NCBI RefSeq assembly: GCF_009914755.1
Contig: NC_060932.1
Length of the DNA: 64,000 bases
Origin: the human T2T-CHM13v2.0 reference genome, Homo sapiens
Direction: 5' to 3' (one strand)
This document shows, piece after piece, positions 33,801-50,746 of this stretch (its first letter is position 1; each line of letters opens with the position of its first letter). The position numbers and the translations under genes were made by a program. A model generated the notes under the pieces. The model searched no databases, was not told the origin of the DNA, and saw only the letters and a program-made list of their open reading frames with translations.

Positions 33801-36033
33801 GAATGAAAGAAAGAAATTCATAGTGGTGTATTTCTTCACATGGTTGTTTTCCATAAGTAAGGATAATTTAGCTTAAAATATGTATCGTTTTCATATCAAG
33901 GCTCAAAAAAGTATTCTTTAGCTCTTGCCTCATATAATTCAGTTTTGCATATTAAATGTTGAAGTTATTTATGTATCATTTAATCCTATTTTTTCACTCT
34001 ACTATATTAAATATAATCTCACAAGGAAATAAGATATATTTTTCTCGGTTCACGCCACTCTGAACTTCTCATGCCCTTTAAACAAGAGCTAGTGCAGTCA
34101 TGCAGTTGTAATGGTTGGAAATTAAAGTTTGCTCATTTCCACATAATTGTTTTATGTCAATAAACAATAAACAATTGAAAAGTTAGAAGTTCACACAAGC
34201 CAAAAATTTTTCATATAAACATACACTTAATGGTTTATAAGATTCTTGCCAAATATGAGACAAAATGGCCCACACAGGCAGAAATTCCATCTCTAGATCC
34301 TCTGGGAAACAGCAAACTTATATTTAGAACTCACACCATCAATTACTGCTCCTAATGGTCTTTATATAAGTCATTTAATCTTCAAAGCAATTCTATATAT
34401 TATTACTCTCCTCATTTTACAGATGCAGAGGCCAAGAAATTTGTTCAAGAATATAGCAAGGAAGAGACAATGCTAGGGTATAAATTTGCATAGTCAGGCT
34501 CTAAAGATGAGCTCTTAATTACTATAATATATAGGAGGCAACGTATCCAGCTTCTGTGGGAATACCTCTAGAGAAGGGGATGTCAATAACACATATACAG
34601 CTCAACTCCCTTTTGCACAGACACTCACTCTTTCAGTTGCTTGACATTTAAATATCAATAAAAATGTTTTAACTTTCTCTAATCTCAATTAGCATACAGA
34701 GACAAGACATCATATTGTGTTTCTTTGGGGGTGATTACCTCTGTAATCGTTAGACTAACAAGAAAATTGTGTGTGATAGAGGCACAAAATAGAAAATGAT
34801 TCTTTCTGTTTGAAAAGTTGAGGAATGTTTTTTACAGGAGGTAAGTTTGATACTTAACTTTAAAGTTGAATTGATTGGTGTACCTTCATTGAAAATTTTC
34901 TCCTGAATGTCCAGCATTAAATAAATAAGCAAACATATAAGTTGCTTGTTGACCTAGCCTCATATATAATGCAAGAAGTAAACATAAACATATAAATGTT
35001 GTAAATGAGCATCAGAATCATCTAATATATAGAATCTTCTGGGAGAGCTACTTTTTAAAACTATAAATTAATGATGATAGCTAATAATTACTTAATTCTT
35101 TCATATGCCTCTTACTGTCCAAAAAGTGTCATATACATTAATCACTTGATCAAAACAATGAATCTAGAGACAGGTACTATTACTAGTACTTCTTTTTCCT
35201 ATATGGGAATTGATACCCAATATAGTTCAGTAGTTTTCAAGAGCCACACAGCTATGACAAAGTAAAAGATTGAACCCAGGCAATCTGACTGCAGAATACT
35301 TCAAACCGCTACACAATACAATCTCCTCTCTTGGAAAATGTTCTTTTACAAGGGAACTAGGTTCCTTTTGAACTTTGCTATCACAGTATTGGATAATTGA
35401 CTGCGCAAGTCTCTCCTCAAATTCCCAACTCATGCATGACTTTTTATTAAGTTGTAGCAATAAAAGAGCAGTGGAGGTGGGGTGGAAGAAGACTCATTTT
35501 TGTCTTCATTACTGCTATGTGGAGCAAGGGCCCAAGCTTTTAAAAACAAGAGCTCAGAGACATGGCCCTGGCCTTGGAAGATGCCCTAGAGACGCTGAGG
35601 TGGTTGTACTTTTGCCATAGGAGTGGCAGCCAGAGAACTGAGCCCAATGAATGCAAAGGCTGGTGCCTGGAAATATTGTGACTTTGCCACAGAAAGAAGA
35701 TGGAGAATTTTAAAGTTGGAAATCTGCCTGGTAAGGGATCATTTGCTGGTGTCTGCAAAGTTGAGTCCATACACACTGGTTTGGAAATTTCAGTCCAGAT
35801 GATAGTTAAGAAAGCAGTAAGAATACAGAGAGTCCACAATGAGATGAAAATGCACTGCCAGTTGAAACATCCTCCTACACTGGAGCTTTATAAATATTTT
35901 AAAGACAAGGATTGGATTAGATTTGACATTAGAAATGTACCATAATACAGAAGGCAATGGACACCTAAAGAACAGAATGAAAACCTTCTTAGGAAATGAA
36001 GCTTGACACTTCACCCACCAGGCCACCACAAGA

Positions 36034-36055
36034 ATGTTGCATTTTCATTATTATG
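36034..36055 (+). CDS. IDO2: IDO2 exon 1, coding portion (MLHFHYY-, long isoform)
   Basis: ATG TTG CAT TTT CAT TAT TAT G|GTAAGT splices in frame to 49985, giving MLHFHYYDTSNKIMEPHRP, which I recall as the N-terminus of the long human IDO2 isoform. Confidence 0.85.
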
Positions 36056-36173
36056 GTAAGTACACTGGTAACTTCTTTTCTAACCTCGTATGCATAATGT
36101 AAACATCAAGACTGACAATTTGGGGCTAGCAACTCAATTGGAAAATCACTGTTCTCTATTGTAAAATTCCTAA

Positions 36174-36587
<414 letters not shown>

Positions 36588-37216
36588 TGAGGACACATTT
36601 GACAATGGCACAGTCAAGAACACTACATAAAGTAGTATTGGCAGATTATGAAATAGCAATTGTTTTGGAAGACGGCAAAACCTGAAGTATTTTCAGACAT
36701 GTACATTATGAAGTATTATACCTTCTTTAACTATGTGCAAGTTAAAATCAGTCATAACTGAAAATCAAAAGGGCAATAATGAACATACTTCATCCAGAAG
36801 AGGTATCCACAAAACTTCTGAAAGAGGTCTTAGTATATCCAGGGATGGAGATATTATTACAATGTATTATCCAAATGATGGAAGTTTTCTCTTGCTGATA
36901 GAATGCATCCACCTACTAACATCAGTAAGTACAGGTTTAACAATTTACCAGAAATGTACTGGAGGAAATATGAATATGCTTCCAGATTTATTCTACCTAA
37001 AGGATCTGGCTCTATTTTACAAGGTCATCTATTTTACAAGGTACTGTAGATGCATTTTGATGAAAAAAATTACCCTGCTATTGATTTTGAGGTCTGGTAT
37101 TATGATAGAGCAAAAACTATCCAAAAGAGATTTAATTCAAGTCATTGCAAAATCTTGGAAAATGTGTGAGAAATCTTACACATGGAAAGGAGGAAGTAAA
37201 GATGGTAGCTTAAACA

Positions 37217-37583
37217 TGTGTTCCACTGTGAACAATTCTCTGCAAACCCACCCCCAAAAGTCAAGGAGGCTGACAGGCTGAAGAAAGAGGCTGTCAAATC
37301 TAGTTTCTCAGAAAAAGAAAAATTAATAGGGACTTAAGAACAGAAGCCATATATCTGCCCTGAGATGAGCTGGTGGATCCTCACACTGTTACCCCCAGAC
37401 CCAGGGCTTATATACCACAGGGAAAGACAATTGCAGTAATTTGCTTAACGGCAGGATTTACGGCAAGTACATGCTCTTAAGAGTAGATTAAGTAGTAACC
37501 TTAGAGGCATTCCTAGAACTGGAGTTAATCAGAAGTCAACACAGTGGATTAGCATCCAAGATGGAGTTGCTTTAGCCTCCACA
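37217..37583 (-). mobile_element. Solo LTR (LTR47-like, tentative) inserted in the PLK4 retrocopy
   Basis: Minus strand starts TGTGGAGGCTAAAGCAACTCCATCTTGGATG. PLK4 homology stops (..GSL) and resumes (KEKMKI..) at its edges. Confidence 0.7.
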
Positions 37584-39299
37584 AAGAGAAAATGAAGATA
37601 AATTTGGTCCATGCTAATTAGGGGGTGTTCCATTTGTTTGAAACTGAAATCTATAATTTCCAAAGAAGAAAATAAACGTGGAAGTCGTCCTTCCTTTTTG
37701 GTATGCATAGACAATCTGGCAGTGTTAGGCCCCTAAGGCCTTATCACCTCCTCCTTCTGTGGGTCAAACTTTACAGTGAGAGGAAAGACATCTTTTAAAA
37801 GAAGAATAATCATGACTAGTTTAATCATGACTAGTTCATCTTCCCTGCAATAGATACCCATATTTAACATACCTATTGTACAAAGAATATGATTGCACAG
37901 CTACAACTTTGGGACAAACTCCTTTTCTGCCGCTTTCAATGATCGTCTTCCAAAATCAGAACAGCTTTTGAATTTTATTTTGTGAAAAATGTCGTTTGAG
38001 TGACACAGTAAACTCTGTGGAGCTCTGTGGATACAGTTGAATGATGGCTCCCAGTTTATCATGCAGGTGGGATTATATTCCAACAGTTATGTTTCACAGA
38101 AAGGCAAAATAACCAGGTACGGAAAAAATGAAAAATTTGCAGCTTACATCAAACAGAAATTGCAGTGTCTTTCATCTCTTTAAAGTTTTCTAATCAAAAT
38201 TCTAGTTTTCATCAATTAAAACTTTATTTAGGTAGATACATTTAATAAGTAACTTTTTGTTGGCTTAAAGGGAATGAACTTTATGTAATGTAACTGTCTA
38301 TTTCAGGAAGCTTTTCTATGAGAATTTAAAACTACACCAAAATATCTTCTTTTTTTTTTTTTTGAGACAAGGTGTCACATTGTCTCTCAGGCTGGAGTGC
38401 AGTGGTGTGATCCTAGCTCACTGTAGCCTTGAATTCCTGGGCTCAACTGATCCTGCTACCTCAACCCCCCACGTAGCTAGGACTACAGGCCTGCACCACC
38501 ACATCTGGCTAATTTTTTATATTTTTGTAGAGAAATGGTCTGGCTACGTTGCCCAGGCTGGTCCCAAACTCCTGGCCTCAGGTGATCCTCCTGCGTCAAC
38601 CTCCCAAAGTGTTGGGATTACAGGTGTGAGCAAACCTGCCATCTCAAAACATGTGTATTTTAATGAGACAACAAAGATCAAGGGAACTTTAGTCCTTACA
38701 ATGTAATGATCAAAAAAGTGAAATAGATAATCAACATAACATTGCTTGTAGACCATGCAAACAAACTTATTGCATTTGTATATTTGTAATGAACTGTTTT
38801 ATAATAACAAAATGTAAAATGTGTATTTTATTTGTCCTTTTATTGTTTTCCTACTTCTTAGACATGTTAAGAACTATGGAAAAAGATATGGGAGTTTGTG
38901 AAAATTTAAATAATTCATATTTATATTACAAGAAACAGATATTAGAATATGTTTGTTTTATATTTCTTTTGTAGCAGAATTTTCTAGCCAGGCATTGTGG
39001 CTTACACCTGTAATTCCAGCACTTTGGGAGGCTGAGGTGGGACAATCACTTAAGCCCAAGAGTTTGAAATCAGTGAGGGCAACATAGTGAGACTCTATCT
39101 CTACAAAAAATTCTCTATCTATATCTATATCTATATAAAGGAATTTTGTGAGGAAAACTATATATTTTGTATATAAATGAATTTTATCAGGAAATATATC
39201 TGTAAATGAATTTTATAAAATATAGCATCACTTTATCCTTGATTTATTTCATTTAATAATTATTTTAAAGTAATATACTAATAAACTCATTTTAAAAAC

Positions 39300-39800
39300 T
39301 GCTATGACCATAAAACTATTAGAGATAACATAAGAGAAAATCTAGGTGACCTTGGGTTTGGAGATAACTTTTTATATATAACACCAAAGGCGCAATCAAT
39401 GAAAAAAATGACAAGCTCTATATCACATATCAATATTAAAATGTGATCTGTGAAAGGCATCGTCAAGAGAACAAAAAGACAAGCCACAGACTGGGAGAAA
39501 ATATTTGCAAAAGACATATGTGATAAAAGACAATTATCAAAATATACAAATAATTCTTAAAACTCAAAAATAAGAAAATGAACAACTCAGTTAAATAATG
39601 GGCAAAAGATCTCAACAGAAACCCCATCAAAGAAGAAACACAGTGGCAAGCATATGAAAATATGATCTACATCATATGCCATTAGGAAATTGCAAATTAA
39701 AACAATGAGATACCACTACATTTTTACATTGGTGAAAATTCCAAGTACTGACAGCACTCTCAGTGCTGGTGAGGATATGGTGCAGTAGAAATCCACACTC
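39300..39800 (+). mobile_element. Old LINE-1 ORF2 3' fragment
   Basis: gacaagccacagactgggagaaaatatttgca..aaatgggcaaaagatct-like text..aaacaatgagataccac. Confidence 0.8.
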
Positions 39801-49239: not shown

Positions 49240-50746
49240 ACCTGGAACATGGCACTTCCAAGTACATGAGCTAAGGTCACAGTAAGACTCAAGCCCCTTC
49301 AACAGAATACCTGGAATTTCTCTGTTAAAGATTTTCTCCTTTACCTGACTACATGTTTGTAATGCAGATCCCTCCAGGAGCGCTTACTTATAAACTGTCC
49401 TGGATCACTAACGCGACATTTTGATGTAAATTAGTTTATCTTGACGTGCTAATGGTAGAAAAAAAGAGAACATGAGGAAACTTGGGTGCTTTCAGGGCTG
49501 GTAGGAAGGATTAAATCTTTGCGGCAATTTCTGAGAAGGGGAAGGAAACCTTGCTAACAATTTTGATAGTTTACTCCATTTGGCTGGAGTAACTCTGATC
49601 CATTTGTCAAATTCACGATGGAGCAGGTACCTGTTAGGGTACAGGTTTGATAAACCACAACCACAGGTCTATTTCATTTCTCCTTTTCCAAAGTGGAACA
49701 AATTTGTCTCTGGGGTTAAAACTGCTTTTCTCATATTGGTGTGTAAGAGAAAATGAGGGAATTTCTTTGAGTTTGTTTGGTTTGTCTGTTTGTTTAAGCA
49801 GCATTTTTTAAATAATTTACTCAGCCCTGTCTCAGAGAAAGTCCATGATGATCTGGAATTCAACCTCAGGGAAAAGTTCTCTCCTGTGCCTGAGACACTG
49901 CGCAACTAACTGGAACCGAAGGATGGAACCTGGGTGTTTAATTTATTAGGAACAATTGATTCTTCAGTGACACTTTCCATGCAGATACTTCAAACAAAAT
50001 AATGGAGCCCCACAGACCGAATGTGAAGACAGCAGTGCCATTGTCTTTGGAAAGCTATCACATATCTGAAGAGTATGGCTTTCTTCTTCCAGATTCTCTG
50101 GTAAGGATAGAGCCTTGGTAAGGATAGGTCAGAATATGTTTCTTGAGATGTTGGTTGGTTTGTTTTTTAAAAATGTATGTGATTATTAAGAGACCAATAT
50201 AAATATCAAGTTGTTTACCTGAGAAAGATGCTACAAAGAGCATAGATTATCATTACTATCAAAAGAGAAGTGACAGATACCACAGAGAACAGGTCAAATG
50301 GAACATTTTTTGTTTCAGTTTCTTTTGACTAGATTGTCAGGCCAGAGAAATTATAAGCAAACCTGTAGTTATCAAGAAAAAGCATGAACTTAAATATAAA
50401 TAAAGAACAAATACAGAGCCTCAGCACCTGGAACATGGCACTTCCAAGTACATGAGCTAAGGTCACAGTAAGACTCAAGCCCCTTCAACAGAGTACCTGG
50501 AATTTCTCTGTTAAAGATTTTCTCCTTTGCATGACTACATGTTTGTAATGCAGATCCCCCCAGGAGCGCTTACTTATAAACTGTCCTGGATCACTATCGC
50601 GACATTTTGATGTAAATTAGTTTATCTTGACTTGCTAATGGTAGAAAAAAAGAGAACATGAGGAAACTTGGGTGCTTTCAGGGCTGGTAGGAAGGATTAA
50701 ATCTTTGTGGCAATTTCTGAGAAGGGGAAGGAAACCTTGCTAACAA
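49240..50746. repeat. Dispersed 321-bp direct repeat (49240-49560 and 50426-50746) flanking IDO2 exon 2
   Basis: ACCTGGAACATGGCACTTCC...GGAAACCTTGCTAACAA occurs twice, with about 7 mismatches by eye. Confidence 0.95.
49985..50100 (+). CDS. IDO2: IDO2 exon 2 (second ATG at 50002); the gene continues beyond the window
   Basis: ttccatgcag acceptor; (D)TSNKIMEPHRPNVKTAVPLSLESYHISEEYGFLLPDSL; donor CTG|GTAAGG. Homologous to IDO1 exon 1 ([16 protein letters not shown]), with a phase-0 donor at the same position. Confidence 0.93.

What the first reader, a model, noticed from the sequence alone, without database searches (positions are those of the whole stretch)
35674..36061. IDO2 exon 1, its start codon and its splice donor are carved out of a PLK4 retrocopy
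Seen: the IDO2 long-isoform start MLHFHYY (36034-36055) and the donor G|GTAAGT sit inside an intronless PLK4-like sequence. The local frame reads [41 protein letters not shown]. Recalled PLK4 reads [42 protein letters not shown], so the IDO2 initiator is an internal kinase-domain Met and the donor is built on the following Gly codon. IDO2 exon 2 is the homologue of IDO1 exon 1. Inference: exon 1 is a later, lineage-restricted addition, making long IDO2 a retrocopy-host chimera. I do not know whether this has been reported.
Basis: partly seen in the sequence, partly recalled or inferred. Interest (0 to 1): 0.9.

Follow-up and report, generated by a model that had tools for sequence, protein, structure and literature searches.

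The report
IDO2 first exon from PLK4 retrocopy
The first exon of the human IDO2 gene, with its splice donor and the start codon of the now-withdrawn 420-residue form, is made almost wholly from an old dead copy of the PLK4 kinase mRNA, and most likely serves only as an untranslated leader.

Summary
It matches only PLK4 among solved structures (E 1e-10). The IDO2 Met aligns to an internal PLK4 Met, and the donor GT is bases 2-3 of the following Gly codon.

The parent PLK4 gene lies on contig C4 of the same genome. The copy is collinear with its exons, lacks its introns, and differs at 21% of 1998 aligned sites. I place it at 35520-39297, wider than annotated, flanked by a 9-nt target-site duplication.

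The ATG and GT are inherited. GTAAGT arose from parental GTATAC by at least two changes.

Exon 1 is an addition: IDO2 exon 2 matches IDO1 exon 1, and mouse Ido2 starts in its exon 1. The MLHFH N-terminus appears in 6 of 83 IDO2 models, all anthropoid.

The 420-aa coding sequence was withdrawn in 2024 (review), and 14 ATGs precede its start. The exon is best read as a 5'UTR exon. I found no publication of this origin. It is a new member of a known kind.

The parts
35488..36055 (+). IDO2 exon 1 (first exon of NM_194294.5), 568 nt. The first 32 nt are host flank and 536 nt (94%) are retrocopy.
   Evidence: Exon coordinates come from the hub's RefSeq table.
35520..39297 (+). PLK4 processed retrocopy, running from the PLK4 5'UTR to the polyadenylation signal. 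It lacks most of the large central coding exon and carries later Alu insertions. It is wider than the annotated LOC100420480 (35685-38212).
   Evidence: It is collinear with about 18 blocks of parental exons on C4:131183926-131202166, with no introns. The exon 1/2 junction is precisely fused at 35704/35705. Stops and frameshifts are present.
35511..35519 (+). 5' copy of the candidate target-site duplication ACTGCTATG
   Evidence: 3 matches in the window against 0.5 expected. Two of them sit exactly at the two ends of the PLK4 homology.
39298..39306 (+). 3' copy of the candidate target-site duplication. It directly follows AATAAA (39280-39285) and a run of five A.
35675..35677 (+). Former PLK4 start codon, now ATT
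   Evidence: Alignment to the end of parental exon 1
35700..35945 (+). 81-codon upstream ORF in the IDO2 leader. It encodes a decayed PLK4 kinase N-lobe. Its ATG is new (parental ATC) and its context has A at -3 and G at +4.
   Evidence: Pfam Pkinase gives E 1.2e-5 and 25.3 bits, below the 31.7-bit cut-off.
36004..36006 (+). In-frame TGA that closes the frame 9 codons before the ATG. The parental codon is CGA.
36034..36036 (+). ATG of the former 420-aa IDO2 form. It is an inherited internal PLK4 Met codon, with A at -3 and T at +4.
36056..36061 (+). Splice donor GTAAGT of exon 1. GT is inherited from the PLK4 Gly codon GGT. The parent reads GTATAC at this position.
   Evidence: It is the only site matching the donor consensus at 8 of 9 positions or better on the + strand of 35488-39296.
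36263..36597 (-). Alu inserted into the retrocopy, with a (TTG)n run. It now lies in IDO2 intron 1 and splits one parental exon.
   Evidence: It differs from the window Alu consensus at 6.7% of non-CpG sites.
38343..38650 (-). Old Alu inserted into the retrocopy's 3'UTR part
   Evidence: It differs from the consensus at 20% of non-CpG sites and is among the 4 most diverged of 49 Alus in the window.
35460..35465 (+). ATAAAA, 28 nt upstream of the annotated start of exon 1. This is a possible TATA-like element in the host flank.
   Evidence: Seen in the sequence only. Not tested.
49985..50100 (+). IDO2 exon 2. The acceptor lies 17 nt upstream of the conserved start codon (50002). It is homologous to IDO1 exon 1.
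   Evidence: Hub table
49823..50100 (+). Proximal first exon of the other RefSeq transcript. This is the ancestral-type first exon and contains the exon 2 acceptor. 4 ATGs precede 50002.
   Evidence: Hub table

Best explanation
An L1-type processed copy of PLK4 mRNA was inserted, in the same orientation as IDO2, about 14.5 kb upstream of the ancestral first exon of IDO2. It decayed as a pseudogene.

Transcription that starts 32 nt upstream of the insertion, in AT-rich host DNA, runs through the former PLK4 5'UTR and the first four coding-exon equivalents. At the former PLK4 Gly codon, two or more mutations turned the inherited GTATAC into GTAAGT, the only consensus-grade donor on that strand of the copy. 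This donor is spliced to an acceptor 17 nt upstream of the conserved IDO2 start codon.

The retrocopy thus supplies 94% of a distal first exon. That exon acts as a long 5'UTR loaded with upstream ATGs. The last ATG of the exon that is in frame with the main ORF, an inherited PLK4 Met codon, happens to be open into the IDO2 frame. It produced the 13-residue extension of the 420-aa model as a by-product.

Shown here: the retrocopy origin, its boundaries, the inheritance of ATG and GT, and the reading frames. Taken from annotation and a review: the transcription start, the exon 1-2 junction, and the withdrawal of the 420-aa coding sequence. Inferred: that the exon is mainly non-coding and lowers translation.
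For: - PLK4 identity: E 7e-27 and 1e-10 to the PLK4 kinase domain, and E 4e-19 to PLK4 polo-box 3.
- Parent gene with introns on C4. The copy is collinear and intronless, and the exon 1/2 junction is fused.
- The PLK4 5'UTR is included from 35524: local score 36, against 11.0 +/- 1.5 (maximum 20) in 200 shuffles.
- There is no similarity to the parental promoter upstream of that point.
- The 3' end lies after AATAAA.
- The 9-nt direct repeat sits exactly at both ends.
- Decay is neutral. 425 of 1998 sites differ, with 46 indel events. Differences are 21.9, 18.1 and 21.7% at codon positions 1, 2 and 3, chi-square p 0.33.
- ATG and GT are inherited, GTAAGT is derived, and TGA comes from CGA.
- It is the sole donor matching 8 of 9 consensus positions or better in 35488-39296.
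- 14 ATGs precede 36034 and 16 precede 50002. The ATGs at 35562 (G/G context) and 35700 (A/G context) open ORFs of 39 and 81 codons.
- RefSeq starts the CDS at 50002 (hub table). The review PMC11593294 says the 420-aa form was removed in February 2024 and is reported inactive in vitro (passages).
- Crystallographers used residues 14-420 (PMC13440583, passages).
Against: - No transcript, CAGE or ribosome data could be examined. The transcription start and the junction rest on RefSeq.
- The ATG at 36034 has A at -3. The 13-codon ORF is open in 6 of 6 anthropoid models that include this exon. Such models would not exist if the frame were closed, so this is circular.
- If many transcripts start further downstream within the exon, 36034 could be the first AUG and the long form could be made.
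- The poly(A) tail is reduced to five A, and the target-site duplication is only 9 nt.
Confidence: 0.85

Rival explanations
1. The 420-residue IDO2 is a real protein. Its first seven residues are a co-opted piece of the PLK4 kinase domain, so it is a true retrocopy-host protein chimera.
For: The ORF from 36034 is open across the junction. The ATG has A at -3. The same N-terminus is modelled in Homo, Pongo, Macaca, Semnopithecus, Saimiri and Aotus. A 420-aa cDNA was described in 2007 according to the review.
Against: 14 upstream ATGs precede it, two in strong context. The coding sequence was withdrawn from databases in 2024, and the 420-aa form is reported inactive in vitro. Two of the 7 residues (positions 6 and 7) differ among the 6 anthropoid models: YY, SH and YR. 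That is what neutral drift would give. No other mammal model has this N-terminus.
Confidence: 0.12
2. The retrocopy-born leader is a selected translational control element, for example upstream ORFs that gate IDO2 synthesis, rather than a neutral by-product.
For: The leader is dense with upstream ATGs. It includes an 81-codon ORF with a new, strong-context ATG. That ORF has stayed open with only one in-frame 12-nt deletion. Its first block is 87% identical to the parent, against 69-89% for the other 15 blocks; only one other block is as high.
Against: The better preservation is post hoc and not significant once 16 blocks are allowed for. The substitution pattern over the whole copy is neutral. 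No cross-species DNA could be compared.
Confidence: 0.15
3. The retrocopy also brought the promoter: the start of exon 1 lies inside carried-over PLK4 promoter sequence.
For: The parental 5'UTR is CpG-rich (20 CpG in 251 nt). The copy reaches the far 5' end of the mRNA.
Against: The annotated start, 35488, is 32 nt outside the insertion as bounded by the direct repeat. The 100 nt upstream of 35524 show chance-level similarity to the parental promoter: score 2 against shuffles of 1.5 +/- 1.1. The copy has lost its CpGs, with 1 left in 35524-35705.
Confidence: 0.08
4. The PLK4 likeness at the ATG and donor is chance, or the region is a genomic (not mRNA-derived) duplicate.
For: None found.
Against: E-values of 1e-10 to 7e-27 to PLK4 alone. 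Collinear intronless blocks span 18 kb of the parent. Exon junctions are fused.
Confidence: 0.01

Closest known systems
Retrocopy-derived first exons of host genes, e.g. CSMD3 and retro_hsap_4001 (Kubiak et al. 2020, PMC7290577, section 3.3.4 read)
   Same: A processed retrocopy supplies the first exon or exons of a transcript with a more upstream start. It also supplies a short new N-terminal peptide (19 residues there, 7 of 13 here).
   Different: In CSMD3 the new exons replace the normal N-terminus. Here the normal start codon is kept downstream and the extension has been withdrawn from annotation. IDO2 and PLK4 do not occur in the one supplementary file of that paper that could be searched.
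Type I exon acquisition from retrocopies (Baertsch et al. 2008, PMC2584115; passages of main text)
   Same: An existing multi-exon gene gains an exon from a nearby retrocopy, often as a UTR or an alternative translation start.
   Different: The passages shown by the search came from that paper's section on acquisition in reverse orientation. Here the sense strand and the original PLK4 frame are used. IDO2, INDOL1 and PLK4 are not in the main text (0 occurrences each). Its supplements could not be opened.
RB1 intron 2 CpG island from a PPP1R26 retrocopy (PMC4122923; abstract as listed only)
   Same: A retrocopy in or near a host gene creates a new regulatory or transcript start feature that mouse lacks.
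   Different: In RB1 the retrocopy's own CpG island is the active element. Here the copy's CpGs have decayed, and the start lies just outside the copy.

Membership tests
Processed (L1-mediated) retrocopy / processed pseudogene | Collinear with the exons of a parent gene elsewhere, with introns absent | tested here: met
   About 18 collinear blocks match C4:131183926-131202166. The parental exon 1 donor GTGAAA and its intron are absent, and the junction is fused at 35704/35705.
Processed (L1-mediated) retrocopy / processed pseudogene | 3' end at the mRNA polyadenylation site with a poly(A) tail | tested here: inconclusive
   Homology ends at 39296, 11 nt after AATAAA. Only five A remain.
Processed (L1-mediated) retrocopy / processed pseudogene | Target-site duplication flanking the insert | tested here: met
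   ACTGCTATG lies at 35511-35519 and 39298-39306, exactly at both ends of the homology. The window holds 3 copies against 0.5 expected. It is short, so the support is moderate.
Processed (L1-mediated) retrocopy / processed pseudogene | Loss of coding capacity and neutral substitution pattern | tested here: met
   There are stops and frameshifts and a large internal deletion. Differences are even across codon positions, p 0.33.
Retrocopy exapted as an exon of another gene | An annotated exon and its splice site lie inside the retrocopy | tested here: met
   Exon 35488-36055 (hub RefSeq table) lies against a retrocopy at 35520-39297. The donor at 36056 sits on a PLK4 Gly codon.
Retrocopy exapted as an exon of another gene | The junction is used in real transcripts | not testable with these tools
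   Support is limited to the RefSeq model (hub) and the review's account of a 2007 cDNA. No RNA data were available.
Retrocopy-host chimeric protein | Retrocopy-derived codons are translated as part of the host protein | not testable with these tools
   The frame is open. However, 14 upstream ATGs precede it and the coding sequence was withdrawn. Translation itself could not be examined.
Protein kinase domain (Pfam PF00069) | Score above the curated cut-off, with an intact domain | tested here: not met
   The 81-codon ORF scores 25.3 bits against a cut-off of 31.7 and covers profile positions 6-73 of 263. The rest of the domain is broken.

The most novel reading that the evidence does not exclude
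The retrocopy did more than lend a UTR. By moving the main human and anthropoid IDO2 transcript onto a leader with 16 upstream ATGs, it may have made IDO2 synthesis depend on reinitiation. IDO2 would then be translated mainly when eIF2-alpha is phosphorylated. IDO enzymes lower tryptophan, and by general knowledge tryptophan shortage activates GCN2. That would form a feedback loop, with the 81-codon PLK4-like upstream ORF as its gate.
Probability: 0.07. Interest if true: 0.65.

Novelty: new member of a known kind. Interest (0 to 1): 0.4.

Why it matters
It gives a simple origin for the 13 extra residues that have confused IDO2 work since 2007. According to the review read, these include two protein lengths, the R248W/Y359X versus R235W/Y346X numbering, and an 'inactive' long form.

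Seven of the 13 residues are a fossil of the PLK4 kinase domain. The other six are former 5'UTR. None has an IDO ancestry. This supports the databases' choice of the 407-residue protein.

It also shows that the reference human IDO2 transcript starts from a distal exon born from a pseudogene and crowded with upstream ATGs. That may bear on why human IDO2 protein is scarce. It also means mouse Ido2, whose first exon carries the start codon, is not a model for the 5' control of the human gene.

As evolution it is one more clean case of a retrocopy exapted in sense orientation, with the donor-creating mutations visible against the parent gene.

Tried and rejected
- Earlier scan findings were not open.
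- The first own-genome search failed because the machine was busy. It worked when repeated.
- A protein search with the 33-residue exon 2 translation was too short. It was re-sent as a 41-residue window reference.
- Literature, 10 of 10 searches used:
  - IDO2 + PLK4: 5 papers, none on this topic judging by title and abstract only.
  - IDO2 + retro terms: ranking dominated by general retrocopy papers, uninformative.
  - IDO2 + start codon or exon 1 terms.
  - IDO2 + pseudogene + exon: 7 papers, none relevant by title and abstract.
  - IDO2 + Kozak: mostly the author name Kozak.
  - 'PLK4 pseudogene', LOC100420480, PLK4P1, 'PLK4 retrocopy': 0 papers.
- Metz et al. 2007 is not held. I did not try Ball et al. 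2007. What they reported is taken from the review.
- Supplements of Baertsch 2008 could not be opened.
- The middle of the copy, read in one frame (36712-37047), gave no PDB match because of frameshifts. Two of three pieces gave no Pfam match.
- Dating by divergence gave no firm age (see the full report).
- Upstream of 35524 I looked for carried-over PLK4 promoter sequence and found none.
- A second shared 9-mer, ACTCATTTT (35492 and 39285), turned out to be PLK4 3'UTR sequence on the 3' side. I rejected it as part of the target-site duplication.

Full report
**1. The observation**

The ATG is at 36034-36036. The exon ends at G 36055 and the intron opens with GTAAGT at 36056-36061.

Joined to exon 2 at 49985, the ATG is open through DTSNKI into MEPHRPN at 50002. 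This reproduces the first 13 residues of the 420-residue database entry NP_919270.2.

**2. Is it PLK4, and more than chance?**

Against all chains of the Protein Data Bank:
- The translation of 35914-36057 matches four distinct sequences at E <= 1, all PLK4 (E 1.1e-10). The IDO2 Met lies on a PLK4 Met, and the terminal Gly lies on Gly128 of chain 4jxf_A.
- The stretch 35700-35927 matches PLK4 at E 7e-27. The next best kinase is at 1.7e-5.
- The stretch 38004-38183 matches only PLK4 polo-box 3 (E 4e-19).

The window's own genome could be searched. The parent gene lies on contig C4. After fetching 30 kb of it, BLASTN shows the window region to be collinear with successive parental exons spread over 18 kb, with no intron sequence between them. 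One junction was checked base by base. Parental exon 1 ends before a GTGAAA intron, and exon 2 starts after an AG. In the window the two exon ends are fused at 35704/35705.

This is a processed retrocopy, as RefSeq's label 'polo like kinase 4 pseudogene' says.

**3. Its true extent**

The annotated span is 35685-38212. I find more at both ends.

At the 5' end, 35524-35669 aligns to the parental 5'UTR. The local score is 36, against 11.0 +/- 1.5 (maximum 20) in 200 shuffles. The former start codon is now ATT at 35675-35677.

At the 3' end, the 3'UTR continues, interrupted by Alus, to 39296. That is 11 nt past an AATAAA.

Exactly outside both ends lies the same 9-mer, ACTGCTATG (35511-35519 and 39298-39306). 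The whole window holds three copies against 0.5 expected. I take it as the target-site duplication, which puts the insert at 35520-39297.

Upstream of 35524 there is no likeness to the parental promoter. Most of the large central coding exon is missing.

**4. What was inherited and what is new**

In the DNA alignment of 36000-36262 to its parental exon (206/287 identities, E 4e-37):
- The ATG is present in the parent.
- The GT is present in the parent, as bases 2-3 of a GGT Gly codon.
- The parent reads GTATAC where the copy reads GTAAGT. As aligned, the difference is a one-base deletion plus a C-to-G change.
- The TGA at 36004 is a parental CGA.

On the + strand of 35488-39296 this is the only site that meets the 9-position donor consensus at 8 or more positions.

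**5. Decay and age**

Over 1998 aligned sites, 425 differ. K2P is 0.255, or 0.239 without CpG sites, and there are 46 indel events. Differences are even over codon positions: 89/407, 74/408 and 88/406, chi-square p 0.33. The copy therefore decayed without coding constraint.

An Alu inside its 3'UTR part (38354-38640) is among the four most diverged of 49 near-full-length Alus in the window: 20% at non-CpG sites from their majority consensus, against a median near 8%. The copy is therefore older than the oldest Alu class here.

By rates that I recall (about 2e-9 per site per year), the divergence suggests very roughly 60-110 million years.

Two things do not fit well with the upper end, and I leave the age open (note):
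- The parent's own synonymous change should add a third-position excess. None is seen.
- A perfect 9-nt duplication is somewhat unexpected at that level of decay.

**6. How far the exon reaches in evolution**

No non-human genome could be searched. I therefore used database protein models.

With residues 1-60 of the 420-residue human entry as query, 83 proteins passed E 0.001. Six begin with MLHFH: Homo, Pongo, Macaca, Semnopithecus, Saimiri and Aotus. The Saimiri model reads SH at positions 6-7, as PLK4 does, where human has YY.

Among the other 77 are the tarsier, four strepsirrhines, tree shrew, rodents, carnivores, ungulates, bats and Afrotheria, and a few non-mammalian entries (fish, a lizard, unnamed). 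They begin at the MEP-type Met, at a later point, or with unrelated extensions.

These are models, some probably projected from human, and a model with a closed frame would not be listed. They show that the ATG, the short frame and a usable junction exist in New and Old World monkeys. They show nothing about use. Absence of a long model elsewhere is weak evidence.

**7. Exon 1 as an addition**

IDO1 exon 1 and IDO2 exon 2 align at 9 of 13 residues (E 2e-6). Both end two codons later in phase 0. In mouse, exon 1 carries the start codon of full-length IDO2 (PMC5638149, passages). RefSeq's other human transcript starts at 49823 in a longer version of exon 2 (hub table). The exon 2 acceptor therefore lies inside the ancestral first exon.

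**8. Is the ATG at 36034 a real start?**

In exon 1, 14 ATGs precede it. Among them are 35562 (G at -3, G at +4, 39 codons) and 35700 (A at -3, G at +4, 81 codons). One upstream ORF, from 35996, overlaps it. The proximal leader has only 4 upstream ATGs.

RefSeq's current coding sequence starts at 50002 (hub table). The 2024 review PMC11593294 (passages) states the following:
- A 407-residue and a 420-residue form were both described in 2007.
- The latter has 13 extra residues and is reported to lack activity in vitro.
- Since February 2024 the databases keep only the 407-residue coding sequence.

The 2026 crystal-structure paper used residues 14-420 and 11-420 (PMC13440583, passages).

Among the six anthropoid models, positions 6 and 7 of the retrocopy-encoded residues vary, as drift would give. 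I therefore read the exon as a 5'UTR exon and the extension as a by-product. I give about 0.12 to the long protein being made in meaningful amounts.

**9. Mechanism proposed**

See Best explanation. The start of transcription (35488) is 32 nt outside the insert, in DNA of 35% G+C. An ATAAAA lies 28 nt upstream. That element is an observation only.

**10. Novelty**

The overlap of the pseudogene and the exon is visible in RefSeq. I found no paper that states the origin of the exon, donor or ATG. The searches are listed under Tried and rejected.
- Kubiak 2020 lists 56 exapted retrocopies. IDO2 and PLK4 do not occur in its one searchable supplement.
- Baertsch 2008 has neither name in its main text.

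The kind of event is well known, so this is a new member of a known kind. Its practical value is mainly for the IDO2 field.

Noticed in passing
35520-39297 versus annotated 35685-38212: The PLK4 pseudogene is about 1.25 kb longer than annotated. It includes the PLK4 5'UTR (from 35524) and 3'UTR (to 39296), and it has a 9-nt target-site duplication.
   Followed up: yes
35700-35945: An 81-codon upstream ORF in the IDO2 leader encodes a decayed PLK4 kinase N-lobe. Its ATG is new (parental ATC) and in strong context. Its first block is 87% identical to the parent, higher than 14 of the other 15 blocks (69-89%). This is post hoc and not significant.
   Followed up: partly
35460-35465: ATAAAA lies 28 nt upstream of the annotated start of IDO2 exon 1, in AT-rich host DNA. 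It may be a TATA-like element.
   Followed up: no
38354-38640: An Alu inside the retrocopy's 3'UTR part is among the 4 most diverged of the 49 near-full-length Alus in the window. This sets a lower bound on the copy's age.
   Followed up: partly
49987-50001 and proteins P0028, P0029, P0030, P0034, P0061: The bases just upstream of the conserved IDO2 start codon read SNKI in frame. Similar residues appear in extended models from Afrotheria and rodents. This points to a conserved stretch of 5'UTR across placental mammals.
   Followed up: no
codon-position counts over 35704-38119: There is no third-position excess of differences between the copy and the parent, although the parent's own synonymous change should add one if the copy is very old. 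Unexplained.
   Followed up: partly
39330-39520: Directly downstream of the 3' target-site copy the sequence looks, by eye and from memory, like the 3' part of an L1 element. The copy may have landed in or beside an older L1.
   Followed up: no
36262-36292: A (TTG)n run of about 10 units adjoins the T-rich end of the antisense Alu that splits the retrocopy.
   Followed up: no
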